A stretch of DNA of 64,000 bases, taken from contig JBGSLV010000043.1 of the NCBI GenBank assembly GCA_041740515.1, forward strand, positions 27,594 through 91,593, read 5' to 3'. The stretch is from Bdellovibrionales bacterium (GTDB lineage Bacteria > Bdellovibrionota > Bdellovibrionia > Bdellovibrionales > UBA1609). The notes under the pieces were generated by a model that was given only the letters and a program-made list of their open reading frames with translations, searched no databases and was not told the DNA's origin. Positions 4,284 through 27,124 of the stretch are shown here, piece by piece. Both the position numbers and the translations under genes were made by a program. The first letter of the stretch is position 1. Each line of letters begins with the position of its first letter.

Positions 4284-4289
4284 TTTATC

Positions 4290-4643
4290 ATGATGCAATC
4301 AACATTCCTCTTTAATATTACCAAAAATAAAAGGATTTCGGATCATGTCGAAATAGCACTGACTTTTGCACAACGTTCAAAAGGACTTTTAGGTCGAAAA
4401 GGTTTAGAACAAAATCAAAGTCTTTGGATTCATCACTGCAACAGTGTTCATACATTTTTTATGCAATTTAGCATTGATGTTTTGTACGTTAACAAAGATT
4501 TGCAAGTGACTAAAATACATCGAGACCTGCAACCCTGGAGACTCAGTTGGGGTGGTTTCGAGTCGCACTCATGCTTTGAATTTCAAGCCCATCAATTAAC
4601 CCATGAAATAAAGATAGGAGACTATTTACGTGTTAGCGCTTAA
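4290..4643 (+). CDS. DUF192 domain protein
   Basis: AQRSKGLLGRK ... CNSVHTFFMQFSIDVLYV pattern typical of DUF192. Lies 6 nt after the tadC-like gene. Confidence 0.7.
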   Translation: MMQSTFLFNITKNKRISDHVEIALTFAQRSKGLLGRKGLEQNQSLWIHHCNSVHTFFMQFSIDVLYVNKDLQVTKIHRDLQPWRLSWGGFESHSCFEFQAHQLTHEIKIGDYLRVSA

Positions 4644-6210: not shown

Positions 6211-7167
6211 ATGAGTAATGTGACCTATAGAAACTCAGACCTAAACCCAAATACTGTGGTACAAAACCACAGTGATAAAAGATTTTTTTTAAAAATCAAT
6301 AAGGGACATGAAAAAGGGGCTGTATTTCAAATCTCTTCGTCAGAAGTTATGATAGGTCGAGATCCTTCTAACCATATTCAACTAAAAAATGATTCAAAAA
6401 TTAGTCGGCACCATGTTAGGCTTATTTTTAAAAATGACCGTTACACAGTACAAGATATCACTAAAAATAATTTTATTTATGTCAATGGCATAAAAGTAAA
6501 ACAATTTGATTTGAAAAATAACGAATTAATCCAAATTGGTGATCATGTCTTACAATTTGTTGAAACAGATATAAACAGCAAAACTAATTCTGCAATGCCA
6601 AATTCAAATCAGGCTCCTCAGAATAACCGATTAAGGCTAATACTTATTCTTATTGTATTAATGGGAAGTGGCTATTATTTCACGACACCAGCTCCGAAGA
6701 TAGATGTTAACACTATTAAAGCTGACGCTTTTGATAATGCGACAAAGAGCGAAAGACGAATAGACAGTATTGAAAATTCAATCAAAGAGTTAGATGAAAA
6801 ATTTAAAGACTCGGTATATTTTACAGAAAATGGTAGGAATGCCCAAGCCATTTTTATTCAAGGTAAACGTGATTTTGATCGTGGCCAATTTTTTTATGCT
6901 CGAGATGCTTTTGGAGCTGTGTTATCCATCGAGCCCTCGCATGCGGAAGCACGCAGACTTTTAAGGCTTTCACAGCAATTTTCAGATGACCTTCTTGAAA
7001 AACAGTTTACCGAAGGTCTTGCTAGCAAAGAGTCTGGTCGTTTTGATTTTTGTAAATCCTCCATGAAAAATATTATGAACTTAATAAACGATCCCGCCAA
7101 CTCTAGGTATCGAGAAGCCAAAAAAATACTGATTGAGTGTGAATTAAAAAAACGAGGTAATTTTTAA
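6211..7167 (+). CDS. FHA-domain protein with one TM span and a helical-repeat extracytoplasmic tail
   Basis: MIGRDPSNHIQL..SRHHVRL..NFIYVNG FHA motifs. TM span LRLILILIVLMGSGYYF. The start codon directly follows the previous stop. Confidence 0.7.
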   Translation: MSNVTYRNSDLNPNTVVQNHSDKRFFLKINKGHEKGAVFQISSSEVMIGRDPSNHIQLKNDSKISRHHVRLIFKNDRYTVQDITKNNFIYVNGIKVKQFDLKNNELIQIGDHVLQFVETDINSKTNSAMPNSNQAPQNNRLRLILILIVLMGSGYYFTTPAPKIDVNTIKADAFDNATKSERRIDSIENSIKELDEKFKDSVYFTENGRNAQAIFIQGKRDFDRGQFFYARDAFGAVLSIEPSHAEARRLLRLSQQFSDDLLEKQFTEGLASKESGRFDFCKSSMKNIMNLINDPANSRYREAKKILIECELKKRGNF

Positions 7168-9062
7168 TGTTTCATTTAAAATGTTTCATCGACGGTGAAC
7201 TTTACAAAGAGCTTAAAATTAATCCTGGGCAAGAGATCATTATCGGTCGAGATGAAACGGCGGATATTGCTTTGGAATCATTCCCCGGTGTTTCAAGACA
7301 ACATATTAAAGTAATACATTTAGGAGATAAACTTTTAGCGGAACGAATGTCCCAAGCTGGCAAATTGATAGTTAATGGCAAAAGTGAAAAGTCGATAGAA
7401 ATTACCGGCCAAGGACAATTTGCTATTCCACCTTATAATTTTGAAGTCTTACAAGAAGTTCAAGAAGTAGAAGTCCAAACGGTAGAGCCTACGGTCAACA
7501 AAGAACCTGAACCCTATATGAGCGAAAAAACCTTTGCCGGTGACTTTGAAAAAACTTCGGTTAGCACCCATGATTTAGCCGCAACTTTCAAAAGAATTGA
7601 ATTTGGAAATATAGTTGATGAATTCAAAATGGATAGTGCCAAATGGACTTTTGGGAGGGCAAAAACCTGCAATGTATTCATTGATCATGACAAAGCTAGT
7701 CGTCAACATTTTGAAGTCTACAAACTTAATAACAAGTTTTTAATTAAAGACCTGGGCAGCTCTAATGGCACATTTCTTAATGGCCATCAGCTTCCAGCAA
7801 ATAATGAAATTGATCTTAAGTCTGGTGATGTGATTTCAATTAACGATTATAAGTTGCTATTTGAAATGAAAGATAATTTTGTTGAAAAACAAATTTATAA
7901 CTTACCAGATTCATATAAACCCGTTGATTTAGAAGATTTTAAATACTCCCAAACTTCTAACAACAGTAATATGGGCGTTGCTAAGGTCAAGTCAGGTTGG
8001 GTAGGTATTTCAGAATGGAGTCTACAAGCAAAAATCAGAGCTGGTATTACCATCGTTTTTATAGCCATGATTACAGGCTTTGCTTTATTCCCTAGTATTA
8101 ATCCTGAGAACAAAGCCTTAGAGCAAAGAGAGCTCGCGGCTTTACGACAAAAAAATGAAGAAAATAAAATTATCGAAAACGCAAAAGTTGCAGCGATTCA
8201 ATACATAGGTGAGGCCCGTTGGTCGTTGTGTATATCTGAAGTTCAAAGAATCCAAGAGCTTCGACCCGACGACCAAGATGCCGCTGAAATAGGGATAAAA
8301 TGTCAAACAGCTTTAGAATCTTTAGAACGTCAAAGCCAAATCGAAGCCCAAGAGCGAGATCGTTTAGCCATAATTGAAAAGGTAAACGCTATTATTGAAG
8401 AGTGTAAAGATAAGGTTAACCAAGGTAGTGCCGTGATTAAGGATTGTCTTCAAGATGCCATTGAACTTGCACCAGAAAATGAAAACATCGCCAAACTTTT
8501 TGACGAGGCCGAGGCCATAGATAGATTGAATGAGGAGAAAAAGCTTAAGCAAGAAAAATATGCTCAAAGATTAAATGCGGGGTTAAGTGTTTTAAAGAAA
8601 GGCGATAGCTTCAAAGATAAACAATATTGGGAAGAAGCCATCAAATGGTATAATACTTTTCTTAAAGGCAATTATCCAGATCCCAAAGGCGAATATAAAC
8701 CAAGAGCTCAGCGTGAAATAGCCTCCATACAATCTGCTTTAGCTAGCACTTTAAAAAAAGCTTTAGATGATGCCAAAGTGCAATTTAATAAAGAAAATTA
8801 CCGCGAAGCCGTGATAGCGGCTCGAAAAGGTTTAAAGATTGATGAGTATCATAAAGAGTTAAGGAAGATTGAAATGGAAGCTTTAGGTATATTAAGAATT
8901 GAAATCCGATCTTTATACCAGGATAGTATTCTTATGGAAGACTTAGGCAAGATTCATACAGCCATTTCAAAATGGAAACAGATTGTTGAACGAGACATAC
9001 CAGGTGAAGAGTACTTTAATAAAGCCGAAAGCAAACTTAAAACTTACGAAACTGAGATCTAA
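7167..9062 (+). CDS. Double-FHA-domain membrane protein with a long coiled-coil/TPR-like tail
   Basis: FHA 1: IIGRDETADIAL..VSRQHIKV. FHA 2: FGRAKTCNVFI..ASRQHFEV..SSNGTFLNGHQL. TM span AGITIVFIAMITGFALF. Overlaps the upstream gene by 1 nt. Confidence 0.75.
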   Translation: MFHLKCFIDGELYKELKINPGQEIIIGRDETADIALESFPGVSRQHIKVIHLGDKLLAERMSQAGKLIVNGKSEKSIEITGQGQFAIPPYNFEVLQEVQEVEVQTVEPTVNKEPEPYMSEKTFAGDFEKTSVSTHDLAATFKRIEFGNIVDEFKMDSAKWTFGRAKTCNVFIDHDKASRQHFEVYKLNNKFLIKDLGSSNGTFLNGHQLPANNEIDLKSGDVISINDYKLLFEMKDNFVEKQIYNLPDSYKPVDLEDFKYSQTSNNSNMGVAKVKSGWVGISEWSLQAKIRAGITIVFIAMITGFALFPSINPENKALEQRELAALRQKNEENKIIENAKVAAIQYIGEARWSLCISEVQRIQELRPDDQDAAEIGIKCQTALESLERQSQIEAQERDRLAIIEKVNAIIEECKDKVNQGSAVIKDCLQDAIELAPENENIAKLFDEAEAIDRLNEEKKLKQEKYAQRLNAGLSVLKKGDSFKDKQYWEEAIKWYNTFLKGNYPDPKGEYKPRAQREIASIQSALASTLKKALDDAKVQFNKENYREAVIAARKGLKIDEYHKELRKIEMEALGILRIEIRSLYQDSILMEDLGKIHTAISKWKQIVERDIPGEEYFNKAESKLKTYETEI

Positions 9063-13083: not shown

Positions 13084-13935
13084 TTAATTACCATACACTG
13101 GCTTAAACATATACACACCGTTTTCAAATTCTCCCACCGACATTAAAGTATCACGCTTATTATTTGGAAATTTTAAAGTAAATATTTTAGTGACTGTTTT
13201 ATAGGGGGAAGTAGTCCCTGGATTACAAATAGTCCCTGCCGTAATATCCCCTGTAGGTCCAAGACAATCAAAGGCGTTACTATTACTCATAGTGGGATAG
13301 ATACTAGTTACCTGCACTCTTATTGAATTTAAAATATTGTTTCTTGAAAATTGGGGCTGATCGATAATTAAATCAGAAATATTATCGAAGATCAGATCAG
13401 TATTGTCAGGAGCTACAACTCCGCTGGCATTGGCAGCCCCGAGGTCTATAACAATTCTAGACCCTCTTCGGGTGTTATCCATAGCTTCATTTTTTCTCAT
13501 GAAAAACACACCTGTTGGCCTGAATTGACTTTGTAGGTTTTCAGGATTGCCCGTTGTTGTTTGCGTCTCTCTGGCAAAAAACATTAGAGTATCACCCGGT
13601 AATGCCCCCAAAGAGGCATCATTGGTATAATTAAAAGTTTTAACAAACCCAGATCCATCAGCGGCTCCTTGTAGTCCATTTAAACTGGGTAGATTCGTAA
13701 AATGAACATTAACAGCTTGGGCCGCAAGCATTTTCCAAGTGTAGATTAAGCGTTCTAAATCTTTTTCGGCATCCGAAATCTTAACCTGCTTCATCCCCAC
13801 AGTTACCATATTTAAGCTGAGTAAAGATGCTGCTAAGAATATGGTGGAAGCAATAACAGCAGTTACTATCAACTCTATCAATGTGAATCCTGCAGATCTT
13901 ATGCTTTTATCCGAGGAAAGATTAGATGGACTCAT
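13084..13935 (-). CDS. Type IV pilin/pseudopilin-like protein (candidate internal start inside the 649-codon ORF)
   Basis: MSPSNLSSDKSIRSAG/FTLIELIVTAVIASTIFLAASLL is a textbook prepilin cleavage/methylation N-terminus. C-terminal Cys pair: FDCLGPTGDITAGTIC. Confidence 0.55.
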   Translation of the reverse strand: MSPSNLSSDKSIRSAGFTLIELIVTAVIASTIFLAASLLSLNMVTVGMKQVKISDAEKDLERLIYTWKMLAAQAVNVHFTNLPSLNGLQGAADGSGFVKTFNYTNDASLGALPGDTLMFFARETQTTTGNPENLQSQFRPTGVFFMRKNEAMDNTRRGSRIVIDLGAANASGVVAPDNTDLIFDNISDLIIDQPQFSRNNILNSIRVQVTSIYPTMSNSNAFDCLGPTGDITAGTICNPGTTSPYKTVTKIFTLKFPNNKRDTLMSVGEFENGVYMFKPVYGN

Positions 13936-15033
13936 GTCTTTTAAGGAGGTTTTTATATCCACATTTTTTAAGGACTGATTATTTAGATTAGGAGTTAATG
14001 GATCTAATACAAATTTATCTTTTATCATAACTTTCTGCTTCTTTAGAAATTTCATAATGTCATTTTTTATTAATCCAAAGGGGTGAAATAAATCATAAAA
14101 ATATGACTTAGGCATACGTCCTTCATGATCATTGATGCCAAACTTATATCTTTCTTTTCTTTGGGGTATATAAAGCGATCCAAGAATTACATCCCAAACT
14201 GAAAAAATAACCCCAAAATTTTTATTAAAATGTATTGAGTTTCGACTGTGATGAACTTGGTGCATATGGGGGCTGATTAAAATATAGCTTATAAATCGGC
14301 CATAATTGATTCGAATATGCGTATGTCGAACATGTTGAATAAAGCTAAAAATAAAATAGGTTATAATTAAAATGGTTAATTTAGTTTCTGAACTTCTACT
14401 GATATTAAAGGCAGTAGATAACATCAATAATCCGGGTATTTGCATAATGGCGATATTTACATATCCGATAATATAGGCCACAGGATGGGTTCTGGATTTT
14501 GTAATCGGACTTAGTACGGTGGCTCTATGATGAGTCATATGAAAGTACCAAATCCATGGAACTTTATGCTCTAAAAAATGAGCCACAAAATTGGTAAAAT
14601 CAATATATAACATTTGCAAAAGTGCATACAGATAAATACCATACACAGGATCTAACATAAAAACGGGCTGTTCAAACCTAAAGTACGAAAAACCTGCATA
14701 GGTGGTAAAAAAGTGTGTAATGTTATTAACGTTTAATAACAAAAAACCAAAATATATGGGTTTATATAAAATCCGCATCGAAAAATATAAACAATCTTTA
14801 ATGAATTCTTTTCGATATCTTTGGGATAAAACAAAAGACTTTATACGTTTTGGGTACGTTTTGGATTTATAAGATTTATAAGCAAAATATAATAACGCCA
14901 CAACCGCGCTGGATAAAAACCAATGGATATTAAATGGGTATTCTTTTTTAAACAGAACACCATTCCCAATATACATAAATTCTTTGTAGGCTAACGACCA
15001 ATAGTTAAGAACCAAATTTATTAGAAACTCCAT
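13084..15033 (-). CDS. Uninterrupted 649-codon ORF: fatty-acid hydroxylase/sterol-desaturase-type membrane enzyme followed in frame by a prepilin-type protein
   Basis: His boxes HFLEH, HMTHH, HVRHTH and HQVHH plus FSVWDVILGSLY in the first ~330 aa. No stop codon before the prepilin N-terminus at codon 367. Confidence 0.6.
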   Translation of the reverse strand: MEFLINLVLNYWSLAYKEFMYIGNGVLFKKEYPFNIHWFLSSAVVALLYFAYKSYKSKTYPKRIKSFVLSQRYRKEFIKDCLYFSMRILYKPIYFGFLLLNVNNITHFFTTYAGFSYFRFEQPVFMLDPVYGIYLYALLQMLYIDFTNFVAHFLEHKVPWIWYFHMTHHRATVLSPITKSRTHPVAYIIGYVNIAIMQIPGLLMLSTAFNISRSSETKLTILIITYFIFSFIQHVRHTHIRINYGRFISYILISPHMHQVHHSRNSIHFNKNFGVIFSVWDVILGSLYIPQRKERYKFGINDHEGRMPKSYFYDLFHPFGLIKNDIMKFLKKQKVMIKDKFVLDPLTPNLNNQSLKNVDIKTSLKDMSPSNLSSDKSIRSAGFTLIELIVTAVIASTIFLAASLLSLNMVTVGMKQVKISDAEKDLERLIYTWKMLAAQAVNVHFTNLPSLNGLQGAADGSGFVKTFNYTNDASLGALPGDTLMFFARETQTTTGNPENLQSQFRPTGVFFMRKNEAMDNTRRGSRIVIDLGAANASGVVAPDNTDLIFDNISDLIIDQPQFSRNNILNSIRVQVTSIYPTMSNSNAFDCLGPTGDITAGTICNPGTTSPYKTVTKIFTLKFPNNKRDTLMSVGEFENGVYMFKPVYGN

Positions 15034-17673: not shown

Positions 17674-18954
17674 TTAAGGTCTAAGCAAAATGATAGGAGA
17701 TTTTTTGTTTAAAGCAATTATCAAATATTTCTTATCTACTCCCACTTGGCTGGATAAACCTTCATTAAATGAATATTTTTTTAATAATTTGAAACTCACA
17801 AAATCATAAATACAAACATCAGTTTTCGCACAAGGAGTGGCGACATATTTTTTACTCTTGTATTTTAGGATGACTGGGCTGGCTCTTTTTGTCTCTTTAC
17901 TCATGCTTAATTCATGAAAAGCAAGCCTTTGGCCTGTCTTCAAATCAATTTTATGCACACCAGTTTGATCATTTATAAATCCAAATGACAATTTTTGATC
18001 TATCGCCGGACTACTTTGATTAAATTCACTAAGCTTATATTGCCAATTTATAAGACCATTAGCTTTTTTCAAACTGTATAAATGACCATCCCATGAACTG
18101 ATGTAAATGTTTTCGTTATCCATGGCTGGCGTAGATTTAATAGGGCCGGCTAATTTTATTTCCCACATGATAGTTCCTGTAGTTTTGGACATAGCTTGAA
18201 ATTTATTATCATTGTCACCAAAATACAAATTTTCATTATCAACAGCCGGTGAAGAATGACTGTGATTACCAATGGGATTGCTGGCCCACACAAGAGACGT
18301 ATCCGATAAATTAATTTTCCCAATATAACCATTAGGATGTAAGGTTTCGACATTGTAATAAAGATAATGCGATTCTAACCAAGGGGTAGCTCCAAAAGAG
18401 TTGCCTAATTGTGCCATCCAAATAATTTTCTTCGCTTCAAGATTCAGAAGATATAGCCGCCCGGAGTATTCACCGATGATAGCGTAATCATTAAAAACAA
18501 TTGGCGTTCCATGAAACCCAAGATTTGAATTATATAGATGTAAAGACCAATGAAGTTTTTCTTGTTTAAAGACTTGAATGAGTCCCTGATCACCAGCCGA
18601 TACCATGAACTTACCATTACTTACGGGCGTAGATTTACTAGCACCATGCCCCCCATGATTAACAATAGTGTCATTCAGCATTTCAGATTTTAAGCTGAGG
18701 GGATCAAAATCAATCTCGTAGAAGCCTGTTCGATCAGCATCATTTCGATATTGAACGGAGGAATCCTTTAATCCCTTAATAAGGTTAGTATCTTTATTTA
18801 TTATAAAAAAATTGGGTTTAATAAAAACGAAACTTCGATAACTGTAGATTCCATAATTATAGAGTGTTGGATTTAAAAAAAATAAAATGAGTAGGGTTAA
18901 AAAAAGGGTACTAAAAGTATAGAAATAAAAAAACTTAAAGCTCTTTACAAACAT
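17674..18954 (-). CDS. PQQ-like (BamB-type) beta-propeller repeat protein with an N-terminal membrane anchor
   Basis: Repeated units such as ENLYFGDNDNKFQAMSKTTGTIMWEIKL and ENIYISSWDGHLYSLKKANGLINWQYKL. Confidence 0.7.
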   Translation of the reverse strand: MFVKSFKFFYFYTFSTLFLTLLILFFLNPTLYNYGIYSYRSFVFIKPNFFIINKDTNLIKGLKDSSVQYRNDADRTGFYEIDFDPLSLKSEMLNDTIVNHGGHGASKSTPVSNGKFMVSAGDQGLIQVFKQEKLHWSLHLYNSNLGFHGTPIVFNDYAIIGEYSGRLYLLNLEAKKIIWMAQLGNSFGATPWLESHYLYYNVETLHPNGYIGKINLSDTSLVWASNPIGNHSHSSPAVDNENLYFGDNDNKFQAMSKTTGTIMWEIKLAGPIKSTPAMDNENIYISSWDGHLYSLKKANGLINWQYKLSEFNQSSPAIDQKLSFGFINDQTGVHKIDLKTGQRLAFHELSMSKETKRASPVILKYKSKKYVATPCAKTDVCIYDFVSFKLLKKYSFNEGLSSQVGVDKKYLIIALNKKSPIILLRP

Positions 18955-20113
18955 TGTTGTAAGTCCTTACAAGAGTATATTCTTTATCTGTTGTTCGTGC
19001 TGACTCTAAGTAAAACAAAAACTTAGAGTTTGGATTTTTCTGACATAATCTTTGAAGAAATGTATCATAAACTATTGCGTCACAATGAATTCTAAGGAAA
19101 TTTACTATTTTGGGAATATTTAAAGCTACTATGCTTCCATCCGATTTTTCCTCAAGTAATGTATGTTGGCATTTAAGCTTAGAATCTAACATATTTAAGG
19201 TTTCATATCTTATATTTCCATCCATGGATGGATCTATTCCATAAAATTTGCTTGAAATATTCCAAACAATCATAAGCATTATAAAAAATATCGAAGCTCG
19301 TCGCCTAAAATTACTGTTGCCGAACTGCAGATCATTCAGAGTTGTAAAAGAATATTTTAATAATCCTGAATCATCATTTGTAAATTCATTAATAACAATA
19401 GGTAACAAAAGACCCATCATTATTAATGGATAATAAAACCCAACAATTAAAACTGAATACAAATGGAATATAATCAACTGTAATAAAGTAACTCGTCTTA
19501 AAAGGACGTTTTGAGATAGCAAACCCCAGATTAAAATAAGTTCTAGTACAGGGACATAAGCCAAACTTAATGTATGCCAAAAGCCGCTCAGCATGTAAGT
19601 GCTATAACTAACCAATGCGGCACCAGACAGCCACTCGATATTAAGTTTTAAAAGTCCTGCAAATACATATTGTAAAATTAGACCCAGTCGATAAAAATGA
19701 AAGGAACCCAAAGAAAGTATCGTTAAAATACTTAAACTTAAATGCATGGTATGGTAATTACCCATGAAATTATATCTTGATAAAAGGACTAATACTTTAA
19801 AAAAAGTAAGGGAATAAAAAATTAGCATATAAATCTTGGTTTTATCAAAAAGGACTAAAAACAGACCGATGACGCAAAAAAGAGCGTAAATATAAAAAAT
19901 ACTTTGAACATAAAATAAATTTTCAAAAGCTAATTCAAAGCAATTTCTAAAAACTGGAACACAGGCTACTTCATAATTTTCATTTGCAAATCTTAACCAA
20001 ACCTTACCTTTCAACCAGTATATCGCAGTTATAAAATGTGCAAAAAGAAGCCCAAAATAAATTGCCTTTTTTAAATAGTTCATTTTATAAGAATTAAAAG
20101 TTTGAAAGTTCAT
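18935..20113 (-). CDS. Polytopic membrane protein, possibly HTTM/VKGC-like, with a small C-terminal soluble domain
   Basis: About 8 hydrophobic spans. The NFMGNYHTMHLSLSILTIL segment is reminiscent of the HTTM N-x-Y-x-L region. The family call is weak. Alternative start at 20083. Confidence 0.4.
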   Translation of the reverse strand: MNFQTFNSYKMNYLKKAIYFGLLFAHFITAIYWLKGKVWLRFANENYEVACVPVFRNCFELAFENLFYVQSIFYIYALFCVIGLFLVLFDKTKIYMLIFYSLTFFKVLVLLSRYNFMGNYHTMHLSLSILTILSLGSFHFYRLGLILQYVFAGLLKLNIEWLSGAALVSYSTYMLSGFWHTLSLAYVPVLELILIWGLLSQNVLLRRVTLLQLIIFHLYSVLIVGFYYPLIMMGLLLPIVINEFTNDDSGLLKYSFTTLNDLQFGNSNFRRRASIFFIMLMIVWNISSKFYGIDPSMDGNIRYETLNMLDSKLKCQHTLLEEKSDGSIVALNIPKIVNFLRIHCDAIVYDTFLQRLCQKNPNSKFLFYLESARTTDKEYTLVRTYNNVCKEL

Positions 20114-20489
20114 ATTTGATTGTATTTTTAAATATTACATTTTTAAGGTTACATGTATTTATATTAGTAAAACTTAGATCTGAATCCAAAAAAATTACAG
20201 TATTCAAACTACAATTGCTAAAGTAGGCCCCTTGAAGTGAAGCTCCTTTTAAGACTGTATTTTCGATATTTAGACCATTAAACTTGACGGCTTCAGCTTT
20301 GAGACCAACAATTTCTGAATTTATAATCTTTAGATTTTGGATTTTTTTAGTCTTTAAATACAAAATGAATACATTGACCGAATCTAAAATTTGATCATTT
20401 TCTGCAATTGAGATCTTGTCATAAGTCTTATTGGGGTCCAAACCATAAATGTTTGAAAATAGTAAGTAGCTAGCCACTATAAGTATCAT
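20094..20489 (-). CDS. Secreted pentapeptide-repeat protein
   Basis: LKGASLQGAYFSNCSLNTVIFLDSDLSFTNINTCNLKNVIF. Start moved to ATG 20489 (MILIVASYLLFSNIYG signal-like). Confidence 0.7.
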   Translation of the reverse strand: MILIVASYLLFSNIYGLDPNKTYDKISIAENDQILDSVNVFILYLKTKKIQNLKIINSEIVGLKAEAVKFNGLNIENTVLKGASLQGAYFSNCSLNTVIFLDSDLSFTNINTCNLKNVIFKNTIKYELSNF

Positions 20490-20645
20490 AGTAAAATGAT
20501 AGATTTTAACATCGATTATGCAAGTTAAATAAAATCTTAGTTTTAAATTAACAACAGGCTTGAGTCGGTAGTTAAGTGTAAAAACTAGTATGGAGTCATA
20601 ATATATCAATTAAATTGTAGTAACAACGACTTGATCTGACAGCTA

Positions 20646-20673
20646 CCCTGTTTGTGTTTAGCTACAAACAGGG
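20646..20673 (-). terminator. 10-bp-stem hairpin downstream of the 441-aa gene (possible terminator or regulatory hairpin)
   Basis: CCCTGTTTGT-N8-ACAAACAGGG. The T-run lies on the plus-strand side only, so its function on the minus strand is uncertain. Confidence 0.25.
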
Positions 20674-20751
20674 TTACCATCTTTTGTTCCTCGTTAATTA
20701 CGAGAAGTGTCAGATTAAGTTGTGACTAGTTCACTTTAGTAATCAAAAATT

Positions 20752-22077
20752 TTAAAAAAAACTACCTATAGACTTGGCACTAAAGACCTGCTTTTGAAAT
20801 ATATATTTATCAGGATCTATATTTGATTTGTTTAAAGTTAGAATTAAGTCACTGATTGATTCTGGAACAAGTAACACATTAGAAAAACCAAATCTTACAA
20901 GGGTTTTATAAACATTGATCGATTTGTTGGGGTCAAGCATATGATGTCCAACAAGATATAATTTATCGTCTTTGGAAATCTTATCTAGTCCAGTTAACAT
21001 ATAGTTGCCAGTAACTTTATTTTCCTTAACTAGTCTATTATATGACTCTTGAGTATAAGTTCTTAAATAGTACTGTTTAAATCCCTCAACAGAAAGCTTT
21101 TCAGGATAAAGTGGAATAGAGTTTTTAAAATGTATAGTCTCAAATGCATCTGGATCGGAGACATCAATAATTTTAAATTTGTCATTGGACTTAAGACTAG
21201 TCAGTAATTGCTCTTGGGATGCAATTTTAGTTCGTTTAAAGACCTCAGCCATTGTTTTTTCTTTATTATTAACCCATTTTTTATCTGCGTCTTTAAACCA
21301 ATATACATTCTTCGCATTTTTTGTATAAAGTTTACTGATCAAATTATAGCCTTTGAAAGTATTTTTATATGTTGAGAACACAACGATATCGTTATTATTT
21401 AATGGTGTTTTCAAATTCGTATCAAAAAGTAAGTCTAAAAGATTAAATTTAGTATCTTTAGGTAAAATATCATTTGCGATTATGGCTTTTGGGAAAAAAT
21501 ATCCGTCCTGATCAGAAAAGGTATAAAATTCAACATTACTCTTGGCGTAGAATTGAATCAGCTGTTTATAATCTATAACTTTGGCATTCCAATGATTTTT
21601 GGGAAAAAGGTTTGGATTCCAAAGTGTCTTAACTTTACTATTTATAAGTTCACCGACTATAAATTGGATTTTTTTATCTTTTTCATTCAAAAGTTTAGAA
21701 TTGTAAATTCCGAAGATAAAATCAGTAAGTAGATAGGGATTCGTTATTTTCTTTACAGTTTCGTGAAAAGTCCTAATCAAATTATTAGGTTCATTAGATT
21801 TTATAGTGATATCATTGTAATAATAAAATTTGCTCATTTTAAATTTTAAAACACCAAATTCTTTACCTTCTAAATTTAAGACTTTAAAATCCTTGGTTAT
21901 CGCACAGATTGAACTCGGCAAAGGAATAATCTTTGATCCATTTTGACTAAAGTAAAAATTAATAAGCTCATCCGGCCATTTTAAATCACTCAAAACTGTA
22001 CAAGCTTCCGCTTTATTTGCGAAAACAAAAAATGTCATGGTGAGTAAAAATATAACATAGTTGCATTTGGATTTCAT
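20752..22077 (-). CDS. Secreted hypothetical protein, possibly with two degenerate rhodanese-homology domains
   Basis: Signal peptide. KIIDVSDPDAFETIHFKNSIPL ... LYLVGHHMLDPNKS..LVRFGFSNVLLV resembles a rhodanese layout without the catalytic Cys. A similar unit lies upstream (VVFSTYKN..NAKNVYWFKD). Confidence 0.35.
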   Translation of the reverse strand: MKSKCNYVIFLLTMTFFVFANKAEACTVLSDLKWPDELINFYFSQNGSKIIPLPSSICAITKDFKVLNLEGKEFGVLKFKMSKFYYYNDITIKSNEPNNLIRTFHETVKKITNPYLLTDFIFGIYNSKLLNEKDKKIQFIVGELINSKVKTLWNPNLFPKNHWNAKVIDYKQLIQFYAKSNVEFYTFSDQDGYFFPKAIIANDILPKDTKFNLLDLLFDTNLKTPLNNNDIVVFSTYKNTFKGYNLISKLYTKNAKNVYWFKDADKKWVNNKEKTMAEVFKRTKIASQEQLLTSLKSNDKFKIIDVSDPDAFETIHFKNSIPLYPEKLSVEGFKQYYLRTYTQESYNRLVKENKVTGNYMLTGLDKISKDDKLYLVGHHMLDPNKSINVYKTLVRFGFSNVLLVPESISDLILTLNKSNIDPDKYIFQKQVFSAKSIGSFF

Positions 22078-22413
22078 AATATCACCCTTTAAAAGATGCT
22101 AAAGGTTATCTTCGGCTAAAACAACATATGTATTAAAAAGGAATTTGCTTTCATTTTTGGAAGCATTACATCGATTATTAACGGTATTGAAGCAATTTAC
22201 TTAAAAATTTACGATAAATGAATTTAATTTTTTAGACTTAATGAAGTCATAACTCTGCCCTAATTCATAATCAGGCTTACAAGAACTACTTTTCTCTTCA
22301 CGTAAATTCATCGATCAGTTTGAGATCAAGAAGATTGAATTGAATTAAATTGGATTATTTTAATTTCTCATTCAAATATGCTGAACTGTCAAATCGGTAG
22401 TAATTCTACCAAC

Positions 22414-22923
22414 TTAATTTCCAGAGTTATTTTTAACGCTTGCTTTCCCGACATTAGCGCCCTCTGTGTATTGTAAATCAACATTATCAAATTGAAGTGT
22501 GAAATTTTCGGTTAAACGCTCTTCGCCACCCGATCCACCGCTTGCTACAGATGTGATCAGAACTTTATTCATTGTGAATTTTATGGTCATTGCATTTTCG
22601 ACTTCAAGAACAACTTTTGAAATTTTTGTTTTCTGGCTTAGTAATTTAATAATCTCAGCTGATTCTGGACCAACAAATTTAGTAAATGACATATCTTGAA
22701 CTTTTAAATCTCTTGATTGCTTTGATTCCGAATCTTCTGAAATATTACTAACTCCCCAACTCCAAGCTAAAATCTCGACTGGTTTTTGCAAATTGGTAAC
22801 ATTCATGGATTTGTCCGTTTCAAAAGAAAGTTTCATTTTTGTACCTCTTCGAGGTGAACTCTCTTGACCAGCTAATGTAAAACAAAAGGTAAAAGTAATA
22901 AGGAATATAAATATATTTTTCAT
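22414..22923 (-). CDS. Hcp-family (type VI secretion tube protein) homologue with an apparent N-terminal signal peptide
   Basis: Blocks VEILAWSWGVSN, LKVQDMSFTKF and ITSVASGGSGGEERLTENFTLQF match Hcp1 hallmark blocks as I recall them. MKNIFIFLITFTFCFTLAGQ precedes the Hcp core. Alternative leaderless start at 22836. Confidence 0.8.
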   Translation of the reverse strand: MKNIFIFLITFTFCFTLAGQESSPRRGTKMKLSFETDKSMNVTNLQKPVEILAWSWGVSNISEDSESKQSRDLKVQDMSFTKFVGPESAEIIKLLSQKTKISKVVLEVENAMTIKFTMNKVLITSVASGGSGGEERLTENFTLQFDNVDLQYTEGANVGKASVKNNSGN

Positions 22924-23112
22924 TTTGAAACCTCTGAAAGGATTTATATAATTTAATATTAAATATTTAACGTGAATTTAGGTTAATTATATCTAATTGA
23001 AGATTCAATAAAAAAAATTTATTTTTTTGGTGCATAGACTTTAAGATAGGTGAGACAACTTTAACTGATAACCCCATTCCATTTAAATTTTTTGATTCTT
23101 AAGTTAACGGCA

Positions 23113-24564
23113 TTACCAACGACAGCTGTTTATGTTATCCGCATTTGCAATAAAACTGTAATTATAAGTTTTATAAAAGAACCAACTTTTTTTAGGACCA
23201 AGGAATTGCTTTATATTCAAATTGGTCAATTTATGTATTTCACCACTTTCAGATTTTACAATAAGATTAAAATTTTGTAGCTTATCTAACTTACGTGCCC
23301 TTTCATAGGCAAGATCAAGTCCTGATTTAGTAATCCAGTCCGATGTTTGTCTAACTTCCGTAAAAATAGATTCGTCATAAGAGCTAAGTACTTGGTAAAG
23401 CTCGCTCTCGTATCCAAATAAATCAATTTTTTTCATAAAAAAATGATTATTGTAGGAACCCGCAAACTTAAGATTTGAGAACATGGTGAAGTTCCCTGCC
23501 GAACGATAGCCAAAATAGATAGAAGTGCTAAATAAACAAAGCAAAATTAATGGTCCTAATTTAAGAGTATCAATTGATGAAAAATTTAAATACCTTTCGA
23601 AAGAATGCCTTTTAATTATATGCTTACTACTCAAATAAATCAGATTCATCGTAATAACGATAAGGATTAATCCTTGTAAAGACTGCAAGGTCTGTTTGAT
23701 TTCTGGAAACACATAAGCACCTATCAAACTTATACCAATAAGGACATAAGAGCTTATAAAATGCAGATAAATAATTTTAATCCAAACATCGAAACTAGAA
23801 ATAACAAGAGGCAAAAATAGAAATAATAAAGCCATAGCCAATGATGAAAAGTCTGCAAACCCACCAAGGGCCAAATAGGAATGCAAAAAGAGCAACATAA
23901 GTAGACCATAGTTTCTATATCGTTTCATCAATAACAAGGTGGGTGCCAATAGTTCCAGTGCACCTACAATTTTGGGGGAAATACTTTTAATAAATACAGG
24001 TATATCATTTAAGTCGATATTATTAAAAAACCGACTAAAAAGCTTTAAGTGGTACCAAGTGGTGCAAGATTTATCAGGATTATAAAAATCAACATTCATT
24101 TTATGCAAAGCAGCGCTATAGTATAAAATGACCAATGCACTTAACAAAAAAATTTTATTTTCAAAAAGATTAAGGTAAATATTTTCATATTTTATAAAAT
24201 TCACAAAATAGAATACAAAAATTAAAAAAAGCAAAAATGTATTAAAATTAGTATGATTGGCCCCATAGGGCCAATGATTAATTATATGAAATAACAGTAA
24301 AGAACAGAAAAAAATAAATAATAGGTTGATATAAAAAAAGAATCTATTAGAACTCTCTATGTGACAGTTTTTTATGGCTTTAAAAAATCGATACGCCAAA
24401 TAATGAAAAGCTAAAAGAAAAACAAATAATACTTTCTCTGCATAGTCGTTTTGGAAGTACTCAAAAAAATGATAAACTTGTGCGGTAACGTAAGACAGAA
24501 TAAAGCCTAAGTCATAAATATTAGACTTTATTGGGATGGCTTTTCTGTTCAAACATAAAGTCAA
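23113..24564 (-). CDS. Polytopic membrane protein, possibly HTTM/VKGC-like, with a C-terminal soluble domain
   Basis: More than 8 hydrophobic spans. WPYGANHTNFNTFLLFLIF and AGNFTMFSNLKFAGSYNNHFF segments. The family call is weak. Confidence 0.4.
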   Translation of the reverse strand: MTLCLNRKAIPIKSNIYDLGFILSYVTAQVYHFFEYFQNDYAEKVLFVFLLAFHYLAYRFFKAIKNCHIESSNRFFFYINLLFIFFCSLLLFHIINHWPYGANHTNFNTFLLFLIFVFYFVNFIKYENIYLNLFENKIFLLSALVILYYSAALHKMNVDFYNPDKSCTTWYHLKLFSRFFNNIDLNDIPVFIKSISPKIVGALELLAPTLLLMKRYRNYGLLMLLFLHSYLALGGFADFSSLAMALLFLFLPLVISSFDVWIKIIYLHFISSYVLIGISLIGAYVFPEIKQTLQSLQGLILIVITMNLIYLSSKHIIKRHSFERYLNFSSIDTLKLGPLILLCLFSTSIYFGYRSAGNFTMFSNLKFAGSYNNHFFMKKIDLFGYESELYQVLSSYDESIFTEVRQTSDWITKSGLDLAYERARKLDKLQNFNLIVKSESGEIHKLTNLNIKQFLGPKKSWFFYKTYNYSFIANADNINSCRW

Positions 24565-24573
24565 TGTATGCCT

Positions 24574-24759
24574 TTAAAATAATTTTTTAAATAGTAAATA
24601 TTCAGACAAAGTATTATCTGCTTTCGACCAAGAATTTTGAATATCATTAGAAAAAGTAACTAGACCATAGTCAGGTTCCAATAAAAAACCTATAAACTCT
24701 TTAGCATTAGCTTTTAGCCCAATAATCAATATAAAAATAGAAAGCAAAGTCTTGAACAT
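24574..24759 (-). CDS. Small secreted protein (61 aa) ending 9 nt upstream of the 483-aa membrane protein gene
   Basis: Signal peptide MFKTLLSIFILIIGLKANA followed by about 40 residues. Tight spacing suggests co-transcription. Confidence 0.4.
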   Translation of the reverse strand: MFKTLLSIFILIIGLKANAKEFIGFLLEPDYGLVTFSNDIQNSWSKADNTLSEYLLFKKLF

Positions 24760-24960
24760 AAATAAATACTTTACGATATAAGTATATTTGTAAAGAACAA
24801 AACCTTAATTAATTCCCTATTTAAATTTATCAACTACTCCAAAAAAATTGGAACTAATTTTTTATAATTCCAATACTTGGTATATATCTTAACTTAAACT
24901 AAAAAACGCAAAAGCTAAAATGCTATTGTTATTTCTATCAATTACATCGAGGATAAATGT

Positions 24961-25377
24961 GTGCGAGCTCAACTTAATCATTTGTTTTTATTATTAATCC
25001 TAGCCCTCGGCTTGGCAGGACCCGTGTCAATGTTAATCTTTGAGTACAATCCCCTGTTTTTTATTTCTCCAGCGCCAAGTGTTTTTACCTATCAAAAAAA
25101 ATATCCCAATCAAATTGAATTTATAAGATATGCCTCAAATGGACCTTACGATAGTATTAAAATGAATCGTGATTTTTATAAAAAAATGATTGGACCACAT
25201 AGATATAAAGTGCTTTTTAATTCACTAATGAAACGTGGCGAAAGGCTAGTGCATTCCAAAAATTATAAAGTTTTTATAAAAAATTTTATCTGTAAACACA
25301 ATACTGATTTAACTTTGTTAAAAGTAGAAATTGTAAAAAACAAAAAAATCTTAAATGTGATCGATTGTCATGGATAA
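24961..25377 (+). CDS. Small membrane-anchored hypothetical protein (position suggests an SdpA-like partner)
   Basis: GTG start with GAGGA 7 nt upstream. One N-terminal hydrophobic span. Overlaps the next gene by 8 nt. Confidence 0.4.
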   Translation: MRAQLNHLFLLLILALGLAGPVSMLIFEYNPLFFISPAPSVFTYQKKYPNQIEFIRYASNGPYDSIKMNRDFYKKMIGPHRYKVLFNSLMKRGERLVHSKNYKVFIKNFICKHNTDLTLLKVEIVKNKKILNVIDCHG

Positions 25378-26188
25378 ACAACAAATTGAAATCAAAACTA
25401 TTCAAATCACTATAGTCTTTCTGGCTATCTACTACCTGTTATATTCTTTATATGAGCTACCTTTTGTCATTGATATGTACTCATGTGCAAGGCTTAATAT
25501 TTGTATTTATAGCGAATTAAACTTATCAAATTTCTATATATTTTTTTTTCAAGTTCTAAAAATTTTTTCCTCCCTGCTTCTCTTTAACAAAAAATTTTAT
25601 AAATTTGCTCTTTTTAATATTTTATCAACTAACATACTTTTTATGTTTGCAAATAAACTTTTACACTCCCCAGAGCAAGGCTACTTAAATTTTTTACTTC
25701 TTATACTTTTGTTATATAAGAATCCAAATAGTCCAGATCATGAATCTTCACCTCATCAAGTTTTTAATTTAAGGCTTACAAAGATTTATATTTTTGTTTT
25801 TTACTTAGCCTACAGTTTCTCTGGATTTACCAAATATCGAACTGACGCTTGGATGGATGGATCTTTTATGAATAATTTTTTTGCTCATAATCATTTGATT
25901 TATAATACCATTTTTTTAGAATTCCTTTCCACCGCTGTGAAAAGTGCCATGACCTATTTTACGGTTTTTATTGAGTTGTTTTCCTTTCTTGCAATTACTA
26001 ATCGCATTTTAGCCCTATTTTTTTGGCTAAATCTCACAATCATTCAAATTGGCCTAATTTTTTGGGCCGATTTATGGCAAGTAAATCTAGGTATGCTAAT
26101 CTGTCATTTTTTTGTTATGGATAATGGTCTTTTAATCGGTATAAAAAAACTTTTACATTCTCTTAAATTTAAAATCTTTAAAATATGA
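25370..26188 (+). CDS. Polytopic membrane protein, possibly SdpB/HTTM-like
   Basis: Several hydrophobic spans. The LHSPEQGYLNFLLLILLLYK segment resembles the HTTM core. Translationally coupled to the 138-aa gene. Confidence 0.4.
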   Translation: MDKQQIEIKTIQITIVFLAIYYLLYSLYELPFVIDMYSCARLNICIYSELNLSNFYIFFFQVLKIFSSLLLFNKKFYKFALFNILSTNILFMFANKLLHSPEQGYLNFLLLILLLYKNPNSPDHESSPHQVFNLRLTKIYIFVFYLAYSFSGFTKYRTDAWMDGSFMNNFFAHNHLIYNTIFLEFLSTAVKSAMTYFTVFIELFSFLAITNRILALFFWLNLTIIQIGLIFWADLWQVNLGMLICHFFVMDNGLLIGIKKLLHSLKFKIFKI

Positions 26189-26379
26189 ATTCTTTTAAAA
26201 ATTGAAAAGTTCCGATGTTTTAAAGATTCCGACTGATTTTCCAAATCAAATATGAATGAATGTTGTACTGCGGAGAGTTAAATACTTTGTTTTTATTTAT
26301 AATGTAATAGCCCCGTTGATGTTGATGTATATCTTTGGTAGCTTTTGTCTAAATAAATAAAATGTTAAGGGGAAATTTT

Positions 26380-27099
26380 ATGAAACAATCCATATTTAAG
26401 AACTATTTTATATTAATTTTAACTCTATTTTTCGTGAATTCATATGCCAACGCTAATTTTTTTCAGAATGCTGGCAGTAAGTATGATGTTCTTTTTGTTA
26501 TGGATGACTCCGCAGATATGACTACAATTAAATATAAAGAAGGGCTGACAACAGCCGTGAGCAAATTGATTGATTTAAATGTACATATTGGAATGATAAC
26601 TACAAGTGATTATGATCAAAGTTACCCAAGAGTTAAAAGAACGGTTTGGGAATTTATTCCTTACTCATCTGCTAGCGACAAAAGTCACACTGACAATGTT
26701 GTAGATTATTTGCTATCAGTTCCCTACAATGGGAGTGGTACAGAAAAATTTTTTCCAAACATAGTTGGGGCTTTTCAAAATTCTGATAGTTCTCTGTTTT
26801 TTAGACAAGATGCTACTTTAGTTATTTTTATTGTTTCAACAGCTGTCGACCAGAGTGAACTGTCATCACTAGATTTTTTAAAAAAACTTGAAGTCTATAA
26901 ATCTTTAACTCATGTTTACATTCGGGCTGCATTAACAGCGCCTCACGATGTTAATGATAACAATTGTAAAGGTGAAATTGACTCATCTAACCTAAGTTTT
27001 GTTCCAAAATTAAACGAACTTATGAATTACTCTAAAATTGATGTTAAAATGATTAGTTTATGTTCAAAAGATTGGAGTTCTTTAATCGATTTTAATTAA
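26380..27099 (+). CDS. Secreted hypothetical protein with a vWA-like layout
   Basis: Start at ATG 26380 (AAGGGGA upstream). Signal peptide. YDVLFVMDDSADM (MIDAS-like DxSxD), HIGMITT, GSGTEKF and ATLVIFIVSTAVD follow vWA strand order. Confidence 0.4.
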   Translation: MKQSIFKNYFILILTLFFVNSYANANFFQNAGSKYDVLFVMDDSADMTTIKYKEGLTTAVSKLIDLNVHIGMITTSDYDQSYPRVKRTVWEFIPYSSASDKSHTDNVVDYLLSVPYNGSGTEKFFPNIVGAFQNSDSSLFFRQDATLVIFIVSTAVDQSELSSLDFLKKLEVYKSLTHVYIRAALTAPHDVNDNNCKGEIDSSNLSFVPKLNELMNYSKIDVKMISLCSKDWSSLIDFN

Positions 27100-27124
27100 T
27101 TTAAATTTATTTTAAATTATACAA

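What the first reader, a model, noticed from the sequence alone, without database searches (positions are those of the whole stretch)
22414..22923. Orphan Hcp (T6SS tube protein) homologue that appears to carry a Sec signal peptide
The core of this 169-aa protein matches the Hcp1 hallmark blocks as I remember them: LAWSWG, VQD[LM]SFTK[FY], and SV[AS][ST]GGSGGE[DE]RLTEN.

It is preceded by MKNIFIFLITFTFCFTLAGQ, a textbook n/h/c signal peptide. Hcp is normally leaderless and leaves the cell through the T6SS itself.

No other T6SS gene (tssB/C, vgrG, tssM and so on) is visible anywhere in the 64 kb. The gene sits alone between 330-nt and 190-nt AT-rich gaps.

Two start codons are possible. ATG 22923 includes the signal peptide. 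ATG 22836 gives a canonical leaderless Hcp starting MKLSFE. Both have AGAGGT 6-7 nt upstream, so the sequence alone does not decide. A random upstream extension encoding a clean signal peptide seems unlikely.

A Sec-exported Hcp ring would be a repurposed tube protein acting in the periplasm or extracellularly.
Basis: partly seen in the sequence, partly recalled or inferred. Interest (0 to 1): 0.72.

Follow-up and report, generated by a model that had tools for sequence, protein, structure and literature searches.

The report
Orphan Hcp protein with signal peptide
A predatory-type (Bdellovibrionota) bacterium encodes a lone copy of the type VI secretion "tube" protein Hcp that carries an export signal. 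This should send it across the inner membrane instead of into a secretion needle, and many unstudied relatives in public data carry the same kind of signal.

Summary
The ORF at 22414-22923 (-) is real. It is a true Hcp1-type protein: Pfam PF05638 at E 3e-12, an AlphaFold model with pLDDT 88, and best fold match P. aeruginosa Hcp1 (1Y12).

The 29 residues before the Hcp barrel look like a Sec/SPase I leader (n-, h- and c-regions, TLA|G site). Random codons of this composition give such a leader about 0.2% of the time.

None of the ~60 ORFs of at least 100 aa in the window hits any other T6SS family. The gene sits in a low-GC island of unmatched genes inside housekeeping DNA of a Bdellovibrionota genome.

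No close orthologue exists (at most 44% identity), so conservation of this particular leader cannot be tested. The nearest clade (P0121/P0122) does have a leader under purifying selection.

About half of the single-domain proteins among the 150 best representatives carry Sec or Tat leaders, usually cleaving right before the canonical AVDMF N-terminus. All 11 related gene neighbourhoods I inspected lack T6SS genes.

The internal ATG at 22836 also has a good SD, but starting there would delete conserved residues that every relative keeps.

Best reading: an exported Hcp-fold protein that works outside a T6SS. Export, ring formation and function are inferred, not shown. I found no literature describing this class.

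The parts
22414..22923 (-). Full CDS of the pre-protein (169 aa plus TAA stop at 22414-22416)
   Evidence: The identical protein, P0001, is in NCBI and Logan assemblies.
22870..22923 (-). Predicted Sec/SPase I signal peptide, residues 1-18 (MKN / IFIFLITFTFCFTL / A). The likely cleavage site is TLA|GQ.
   Evidence: Passes the heuristic n/h/c filter, with a chance rate of about 0.2%. Its F/I/L-rich style matches the other signal peptides of this window. The AF2 model is unstructured and low-confidence for residues 1-28. There is no lipobox.
22840..22869 (-). Linker, residues 19-28 (GQESSPRRGT). It includes T28 of the subfamily [ST]-x-M motif.
   Evidence: T28 is invariant in alignment A2, and Ser/Thr dominates that column in A4.
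22432..22839 (-). Hcp1-type beta-barrel domain, residues 29-164
   Evidence: PF05638 covers residues 45-152. AF2 places strands from E29 to E164 with pLDDT above 90 for most of the domain. Foldseek best hit is 1Y12, TM about 0.7. All 11 invariant columns of a 115-sequence Hcp alignment are present.
22930..22935 (-). SD-like AGAGGT, 6 nt upstream of ATG 22923
   Evidence: A 5-nt SD-like core 4-10 nt upstream occurs at 16/61 listed starts versus 8/385 internal ATGs.
22843..22848 (-). Second AGAGGT (codons R26-G27), 6 nt upstream of the internal ATG at 22836-22834 (M30). This is a possible alternative or secondary initiation site.
22396..22410 (-). Short palindrome (GGTAG-AATTA-CTACC), 4 nt after the stop codon. 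It is a weak terminator-like hairpin.
   Evidence: It was reported on the + strand but is palindromic. The T-run on the - strand is poor, so this is only suggestive.
18000..27100 (.). Low-GC (27-33%) island of lineage-specific genes that contains the Hcp gene. The rest of the window is mostly 34-42% GC.
   Evidence: Composition profile. Most island ORFs have no Pfam hit above threshold. Island proteins are absent from the E3-LplA-syntenic loci of relatives.

Best explanation
The gene encodes a secretory pre-protein. It has a cleavable Sec-type signal peptide (about residues 1-18), a 10-residue linker, and a complete Hcp1-type beta-barrel.

The proposed pathway is as follows. Translation starts at ATG 22923. 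The Sec translocon moves the chain across the inner membrane of this diderm Bdellovibrionota cell. Signal peptidase I cuts after TLA. A roughly 16-kDa Hcp domain is released into the periplasm, or possibly further out.

There it cannot join a cytoplasmic T6SS tube. Most likely it forms Hcp-like rings that act as an envelope or extracellular scaffold, or as a carrier or chaperone ring. It belongs to a widespread, uncharacterised set of Sec- and Tat-targeted Hcp-fold proteins encoded away from T6SS loci.

Shown here: Hcp family and fold; a signal-peptide-like leader; absence of T6SS genes in 64 kb; recurrence and selective conservation of leaders in relatives; orphan contexts.

Inferred: use of ATG 22923, export, cleavage, ring formation and function.
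For: 1. **Hcp identity.** PF05638 at E 3.4e-12, PDB 1Y12 at E 2e-15, AF2 pLDDT 87.6 with the barrel running from residue 29, and Foldseek to 1Y12 at E 5e-12.
2. **The leader passes an n/h/c and -3/-1 filter.** Only about 0.2% of random-codon peptides of this composition pass. It also resembles other signal peptides in the window.
3. **ATG 22923 has an SD at optimal spacing**.
4. **M30 aligns with Met5 of canonical MAVDMF.** A Ser/Thr two residues upstream is conserved across most of the subfamily. None of the 18 subfamily members starts at that Met.
5. **The nearest clade has a selected leader.** In the syntenic orthologues P0121 and P0122, the h-region changes are nearly all hydrophobic-to-hydrophobic (one V-to-G). 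GFQASAGST is kept through 5 synonymous changes, and the SD is conserved.
6. **Leaders are common among relatives.** In an unbiased HMMER search of 1.84 billion representatives, 106 of the best 150 are classified single-domain proteins. Of these, 48 have Sec-type leaders, 6 are flagged Tat-like (4 convincing) and 50 have none. The profile did not include the leader columns.
7. **Contexts are orphan.** None of the 11 related loci has a T6SS core gene within the DNA or gene list available, up to +-10 kb. A canonical control Hcp sits in tssB-tssC-hcp-tssE-F-G-H.
8. **No T6SS family in the 64-kb window**.
Against: - No orthologue above 44% identity exists, so conservation of this particular leader is untested.
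- The internal ATG 22836 also has AGAGGT at 6 nt. Such SD-like cores precede only 2% of internal ATGs, so internal initiation is plausible.
- The codon-usage score of the leader is intermediate between coding and non-coding.
- The h-region is unusually Phe/Thr-rich, and the signal-peptide call rests on my heuristic, not on SignalP.
- Only 64 kb of the genome was visible, so a T6SS could lie elsewhere.
- The same subfamily includes leaderless members (P0004, P0099, P0124-P0127, P0131, P0141).
- Ring formation was not modelled.
Confidence: 0.68

Rival explanations
1. This is an ordinary leaderless Hcp. Translation starts at ATG 22836 (MKLSFE...), the upstream 87 nt is untranslated or fortuitously open, and the protein is the tube subunit of a T6SS encoded elsewhere in the genome.
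For: AGAGGT lies 6 nt upstream of ATG 22836, and SD-like cores precede only 8/385 internal ATGs. Orphan hcp genes are common in T6SS-positive bacteria (general knowledge). Leaderless members exist in the same subfamily. The codon score of the leader is not decisive.
Against: A chance signal-peptide-like extension has a probability of about 0.002. A start at M30 would remove the conserved [ST]-x segment and give an N-terminus at least 3 residues shorter than every one of the 18 subfamily members and the canonical Hcps. The AGAGGT encodes R26-G27, and a Gly at that position recurs in several relatives, so the SD-like string may be a coding by-product. No vgrG, PAAR or tss gene lies in the 64 kb. 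Relatives of this subfamily are never next to T6SS genes in the stretches available.
Confidence: 0.12
2. Dual initiation. Both ATGs are used, giving an exported isoform and a cytoplasmic leaderless isoform. This would mirror in one gene the tandem pairs of leader-bearing and leaderless short Hcps seen in other genomes.
For: Both starts have identical AGAGGT-N6-ATG geometry. L004 encodes a leader-bearing Hcp directly followed by a leaderless one. L093 encodes a leaderless, a degenerate and a leader-bearing Hcp in tandem.
Against: There is no direct evidence. A cytoplasmic isoform starting at M30 would lack the conserved N-terminal residues. A single-genome observation cannot separate this from coincidence.
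Confidence: 0.1
3. The hydrophobic N-terminus is an uncleaved signal-anchor. The Hcp domain is tethered to the periplasmic face of the inner membrane rather than released.
For: The h-region is long (about 14-15 residues) and very hydrophobic, and Leu is at -3 for the alternative LAG|Q site. I could not run a trained cleavage predictor.
Against: T at -3 and A at -1 (TLA|G) fit the SPase I rule. Fourteen to fifteen residues is short for a stable TM helix. Relatives have clear AXA sites directly before the mature Hcp N-terminus.
Confidence: 0.07
4. This is a decaying remnant of a lost T6SS, or a gene-call artefact with no function.
For: It is a singleton, in a low-GC island, and no orthologue was found in relatives.
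Against: The ORF is intact. All 11 invariant and all 15 nearly invariant Hcp columns are retained. The model is a confident, complete barrel. A good SD is present.
Confidence: 0.03

Closest known systems
Hcp1 / TssD of T6SS-i, e.g. P. aeruginosa PA0085 (PDB 1Y12); Pfam PF05638
   Same: Same family and fold. The ILAWSWG, VQDxSxTK and GGSGGExRLTEN motifs are present, with about 27-40% identity.
   Different: This protein has a 28-residue Sec-type leader plus linker. It lacks the ~5-residue KAGExPLEY insertion and the C-terminal W-x-I strand segment of canonical 160-aa Hcp1. It is not next to any tss, vgrG or PAAR gene. It does not reach any NCBIfam Hcp model.
Orphan hcp genes and hcp-vgrG auxiliary islands of T6SS-positive bacteria
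   Same: A stand-alone hcp away from a main cluster.
   Different: Known orphan Hcps are leaderless and usually travel with vgrG and effector-immunity genes. Neither applies here.
Hcp-ET (Hcp with C-terminal toxin extension) and the Hcp chaperone-ring function for small effectors
   Same: These are precedents for Hcp rings acting as carriers or chaperones rather than only as tube building blocks (established knowledge). Some leader-bearing relatives also carry C-terminal extensions.
   Different: Those systems are cytoplasmic and depend on the T6SS. This protein has no C-terminal extension and carries an N-terminal export signal.
Uncharacterised metagenomic Hcp proteins with leaders: P0121/P0122, P0139, P0180, P0400, and the large AXA|AVDMF clade (e.g. 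P0386, P0414)
   Same: Leader plus Hcp domain, encoded away from T6SS genes. The P0121 clade is the best BLAST match (40% identity).
   Different: Only about 30-40% identical. This protein has a longer linker (10 aa versus 0-4) and is a single gene rather than a tandem pair.

Membership tests
Hcp/TssD family (Pfam PF05638) | Sequence match to the family profile above the curated threshold | tested here: met
   47.2 bits against a 23.5-bit cutoff, E 3.4e-12, covering profile positions 16-129 of 129.
Hcp/TssD family (Pfam PF05638) | Hcp beta-barrel fold | tested here: met
   AF2 pLDDT 87.6. The top 50 Foldseek PDB hits listed are all Hcp proteins, Hcp-containing fusion constructs or Hcp-containing T6SS assemblies; the best is 1Y12 at E 4.7e-12.
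Functional T6SS tube subunit | Cytoplasmic, leaderless protein with no Sec or Tat signal | tested here: not met
   The longest ORF begins with an n/h/c signal-peptide-like leader. Caveat: start-codon usage has not been mapped experimentally.
Functional T6SS tube subunit | Encoded with, or in a genome that has, T6SS core genes (tssA-M, vgrG) | tested here: not met
   None among about 60 ORFs of the 64-kb window. The rest of the genome was not available, so genome-wide absence could not be tested here.
Functional T6SS tube subunit | Forms hexameric rings that stack into a tube inside the TssBC sheath, with T6SS-dependent release | not testable with these tools
   No multimer prediction or experiment was possible.
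Sec/SPase I secretory pre-proteins | Positively charged n-region, uncharged hydrophobic h-region of 10-15 residues, small residues at -3 and -1 | tested here: met
   K2; I4-L17 uncharged; T16 at -3 and A18 at -1. Passes the heuristic filter at a random rate of about 0.2%. No trained predictor such as SignalP was available.
Sec/SPase I secretory pre-proteins | Actual translocation and cleavage | not testable with these tools
   Needs a PhoA fusion, fractionation or N-terminal mass spectrometry.
Bacterial lipoproteins (SPase II) | Lipobox [LVI][ASTVI][GAS]C at the end of the h-region | tested here: not met
   The only Cys (C14) is preceded by F-T-F.
Hcp-ET / extended Hcp effectors | C-terminal extension domain after the Hcp barrel | tested here: not met
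   The protein ends about 5 residues after the last barrel strand.

The most novel reading that the evidence does not exclude
Sec- and Tat-exported Hcp-fold proteins may form a widespread, undescribed class of envelope or extracellular ring proteins that work independently of the T6SS. This Bdellovibrionota gene would be one member. The class would also include two-gene modules of leader-bearing Hcps and single-chain proteins with exactly six tandem Hcp domains (covalent pseudo-hexamers). If so, the phage-tail-tube fold has been repurposed at least once for a function on the other side of the inner membrane.
Probability: 0.5. Interest if true: 0.8.

Novelty: new variant of a known kind. Interest (0 to 1): 0.64.

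Why it matters
Lack of a signal peptide is part of the textbook definition of Hcp, and presence of an hcp gene is routinely used as a marker for a T6SS. An Hcp routed through Sec cannot be a T6SS tube subunit.

If confirmed, three things follow.
1. hcp hits in genomes and metagenomes, especially in Bdellovibrionota and Planctomycetes-like lineages, would over-call T6SS.
2. The Hcp ring would have a second, unknown job in the periplasm or outside the cell.
3. The many leader-bearing and six-fold tandem relatives found here would give a ready experimental entry point into that function.

For a predatory lineage, an exported ring-shaped carrier is an attractive but untested candidate for handling secreted hydrolases.

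Tried and rejected
- **Orthologue test of the leader.**
  - The word-index search of 5.8 billion proteins gave nothing above 44% identity.
  - The genome-contig scan gave two distant hits only. The direct test was therefore impossible.
- **Syntenic-site test.**
  - I scanned metagenome contigs with the neighbouring E3 gene, hoping for the 81-88%-identity (by IleS) relatives.
  - Only relatives with 70% E3 identity came back. They keep E3-LplA but lack every island gene.
- **Promoter and terminator scan.** There were fewer promoter-like hits than in shuffles. One 9/12 match overlaps ATG 22923 and would favour the internal start, but I dismissed it as noise.
- **Codon-usage log-odds of the 28 leader codons.** The score is intermediate, so inconclusive.
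- **NCBIfam scan.** No Hcp model reached; the only hit is a spurious PqqD match at E 0.12.
- **tblastn of a leader-bearing Hcp against plasmids.** Only canonical leaderless Hcps in T6SS clusters came back. An apparent N-terminal extension in Rhodovulum was read-through into tssC.
- **AFDB Foldseek.** The library was unavailable.
- **Literature.** Eight full-text searches found no description of Sec- or Tat-leader Hcps or of tandem six-domain Hcps. One metaproteome paper only mentions T6SS_HCP-domain proteins in a secretome cluster.
- **Lipoprotein reading.** Rejected, because there is no lipobox.
- **Taxonomy from cluster names.** No names were returned. It was solved instead through IleS homologues.

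Full report
**1. Observation**

The minus-strand ORF 22414-22923 encodes 169 aa, exactly as quoted. The motifs ILAWSWG, VQDMSFTKF and SVASGGSGGEERLTEN are all present.

The second in-frame ATG is at 22836. It is codon 30, and it gives MKLSFE. Both ATGs are preceded by AGAGGT and a 6-nt spacer, at 22935-22930 and 22848-22843. The flanking gaps are 189 nt and 336 nt.

The identical protein (P0001) occurs once in public data, in NCBI on a 117-kb contig and in a Logan assembly.

**2. It is a true Hcp**

- Pfam PF05638 scores 47 bits against a 23.5-bit cutoff, E 3.4e-12, aligning residues 45-152 to profile positions 16-129.
- phmmer against PDB gives P. aeruginosa Hcp1 (1Y12) at E 2e-15.
- An AF2 model built on a 115-sequence alignment has pLDDT 87.6 and pTM 0.77. 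Residues 1-28 are unstructured with pLDDT about 60-74, and the barrel starts at residue 29.
- The 50 best Foldseek PDB hits listed are all Hcp proteins, Hcp-containing fusion constructs or Hcp-containing T6SS assemblies.
- All 11 invariant and all 15 nearly invariant columns of that alignment are kept in this protein. This argues against decay.
- NCBIfam has no model that reaches it.

**3. The leader**

The N-terminus has K2 in the n-region and an uncharged stretch from I4 to L17. T16 and A18 sit at -3 and -1. There is no lipobox.

I wrote a crude n/h/c and -3/-1 filter. It passes this peptide and the obvious signal peptides of the window. It passes only 0.18-0.24% of random-codon peptides drawn from the window, island or gap composition. 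Of 596 ATG-started stop-free 32-mers in all six frames, 10 pass. One is this leader, and most of the other nine start a listed ORF. The Phe/Ile/Thr-rich style matches the other signal peptides in this AT-rich genome.

The codon-usage log-odds of the leader is 0.13 per codon. This lies between in-frame segments (0.25 +- 0.13) and stop-free out-of-frame segments (-0.03 +- 0.16), so it does not decide the question.

**4. Which start codon?**

A 5-nt SD-like core 4-10 nt upstream is found at 16/61 listed starts but at only 8/385 internal ATGs. Both ATGs therefore look like real starts, and internal initiation cannot be dismissed.

Alignments argue against M30 as the only start. M30 is nearly invariant and aligns with Met5 of canonical MAVDMF. 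A Ser or Thr two residues before it (T28 here) is invariant in the four-sequence alignment and dominant in the 18-member subfamily alignment. Every member, leaderless ones included, has at least 3 residues before that Met. No other start codon lies between M1 and M30.

**5. Relatives**

No protein above 44% identity exists in 5.8 billion clusters or among the GTDB species representatives. Conservation of this exact leader is therefore untestable.

The best BLAST match is P0121. It sits in MAG GCA_947444305.1 and starts MKNVLLVLLAVVGFQASA|GSTDMHLQL. Its syntenic orthologue is P0122. Between the two:
- the h-region changes are nearly all hydrophobic-to-hydrophobic, with one V-to-G;
- GFQASAGST is retained through five synonymous changes;
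- the GGGGGA SD is conserved while sequence further upstream diverges.

That leader is translated and under selection.

I then ran a profile of the 18-member "short Hcp" subfamily against 1.84 billion representatives. The leader columns were not part of the profile. It gave 4065 hits. Of the best 150, 106 are classified single-domain proteins:
- 48 have Sec-type leaders;
- 6 are flagged Tat-like, of which 4 have convincing twin-arginine leaders;
- 50 have no leader.

The AXA site usually sits directly before AVDMFLK, the normal mature Hcp N-terminus.

On an NJ tree the leader trait is clustered, with 25 changes against 52 expected by shuffling. In the branch around this protein it is mixed.

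**6. Gene context**

IleS in the window is closest to named Bdellovibrionaceae / Pseudobdellovibrionaceae MAGs at 67% identity. Unnamed relatives reach 88%.

All ~60 ORFs of at least 100 aa were scanned. They are housekeeping genes (ileS, lspA, lgt, men genes, citrate synthase, PDH E2/E3, lipA) plus Tad-type T2SSF, three FHA proteins and ExbBD. There is no T6SS family among them.

The Hcp gene lies in a 27-33% GC island, about 18-27 kb, made up mostly of membrane or secreted proteins without Pfam matches. None of the island proteins is found in the E3-LplA-syntenic loci of relatives with about 70% E3 identity.

I inspected eleven other loci of related Hcps. None has a T6SS core gene in the DNA or gene list available, up to +-10 kb:
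- L004/L005: a leader-bearing Hcp followed by a leaderless Hcp, then a cytochrome-c-like gene and a patatin gene.
- L006-9.
- The P0190 locus: a leader-bearing Hcp followed by a 785-aa protein with Hcp, Big_9 and cadherin domains.
- The P0132 locus.
- L011.
- L012, which is syntenic with L004.
- L093/L094: leaderless, degenerate and leader-bearing Hcps in tandem.
- L095 and L096.
- L098 and L099: a leader-bearing Hcp followed by a leader-bearing Hcp with a conserved C-terminal extension of roughly 90 aa.

As a control, a canonical Hcp on a Rhodovulum plasmid sits in tssB-tssC-hcp-tssE-F-G-H.

**7. Mechanism**

The best-supported reading is a Sec-exported, SPase-I-processed Hcp-fold protein that acts in the envelope or outside the cell and not in a T6SS tube. 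My confidence is about 0.68.

Ring formation is inferred from two things: retention of the family core, and the existence of exported single-chain proteins with exactly six Hcp domains.

The rivals, with my estimates:
- a leaderless T6SS Hcp starting at ATG 22836 (0.12);
- dual initiation (0.10);
- an uncleaved signal-anchor (0.07);
- a remnant or artefact (0.03).

**8. Comparison with known systems, and novelty**

By sequence and fold this protein is a member of PF05638. It fails two features that define a working T6SS tube subunit: being leaderless, and being linked to T6SS genes, at least within 64 kb. I therefore file it as a new variant of a known kind.

Eight full-text searches found no description of Sec- or Tat-leader Hcps or of six-domain Hcps. 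That library lacks most subscription papers, so prior description cannot be excluded.

**9. Side observation**

About 20 proteins of 800-2164 aa carry exactly six tandem Hcp domains. Many of them start with an RR..E.LE.R.LLA motif. From memory this resembles Planctomycetes export leaders; I did not test that.

An AF2 model of one of them, P0360 (1066 aa), has pLDDT 78 and pTM 0.77. Such a pTM for a six-domain chain suggests a fixed arrangement of the domains. I could not inspect the coordinates to confirm a ring.

Noticed in passing
Proteins P0358-P0365, P0367-P0370, P0372, P0375, P0377, P0378, P0383, P0445, P0448, P0485: About 20 large proteins (800-2164 aa) contain exactly six tandem Hcp domains in one chain; P0404 has three. 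Many begin with an RR..E.LE.R.LLA leader-like motif. These could be covalent pseudo-hexameric Hcp rings. The AF2 model of P0360 has pLDDT 78 and pTM 0.77, but ring closure could not be inspected.
   Followed up: partly
Proteins P0472, P0482, P0489, P0490: Hcp-domain proteins with twin-arginine (Tat-type) leaders, for example ..NRREVLLGAAGLAVAAG.. and ..RRDLLKGAAGLAAFAAVAG.., instead of Sec leaders.
   Followed up: no
L098:135-1551; L099:1377-2754; P0190 locus: A recurring two-gene module: a leader-bearing Hcp of about 185 aa directly followed by a second Hcp. In L098 and L099 the second protein is leader-bearing with a conserved C-terminal extension of roughly 90 aa (..LTYTNGAP..YQVW.AS..). 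At the P0190 locus it is a 785-aa protein with Hcp, Big_9 and cadherin domains.
   Followed up: partly
L004:9489-10420; L093:10001-11257: Tandem arrays that mix leader-bearing and leaderless short Hcps in two unrelated genomes. L004 has a leader-bearing 162-aa gene followed by a leaderless 139-aa gene, then a cytochrome-c-like gene and a patatin gene. L093 has a leaderless 128-aa gene, a degenerate 134-aa gene and a leader-bearing 153-aa gene.
   Followed up: partly
window 18000-27100: A low-GC (27-33%) island. Most of its ORFs have no Pfam hit above threshold. It holds multi-pass membrane proteins (18935-20113, 23113-24564, 25370-26188), secreted proteins (20752-22077 with a weak rhodanese hit; 24574-24759; 26362-27099) and a pentapeptide-repeat protein (20094-20609). 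No homologues were found in the syntenic loci of relatives.
   Followed up: partly
window 3375-9062: A cluster with a Tad/T2SS-F-like membrane protein, a DUF192 protein and three consecutive FHA-domain proteins (4630-6210, 6211-7167, 7167-9062). The last one weakly matches the TagH FHA model, below its cutoff. This is a generic FHA signalling module, not T6SS evidence.
   Followed up: no
window 22910-22938 (-): A weak sigma-70-like match (TTCAGA-17-TATATT, 9/12) that overlaps ATG 22923. If functional, it would produce an mRNA lacking the first start. The region has fewer such matches than shuffled controls, so it is probably noise.
   Followed up: no
window 13084-15033 (-): A 649-aa protein that combines a fatty-acid hydroxylase (OlsE-like) domain with a marginal match to the prepilin-type N-terminal methylation motif at residues 379-402 (21.4 bits against a 21.2-bit cutoff). 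This is an odd architecture.
   Followed up: no
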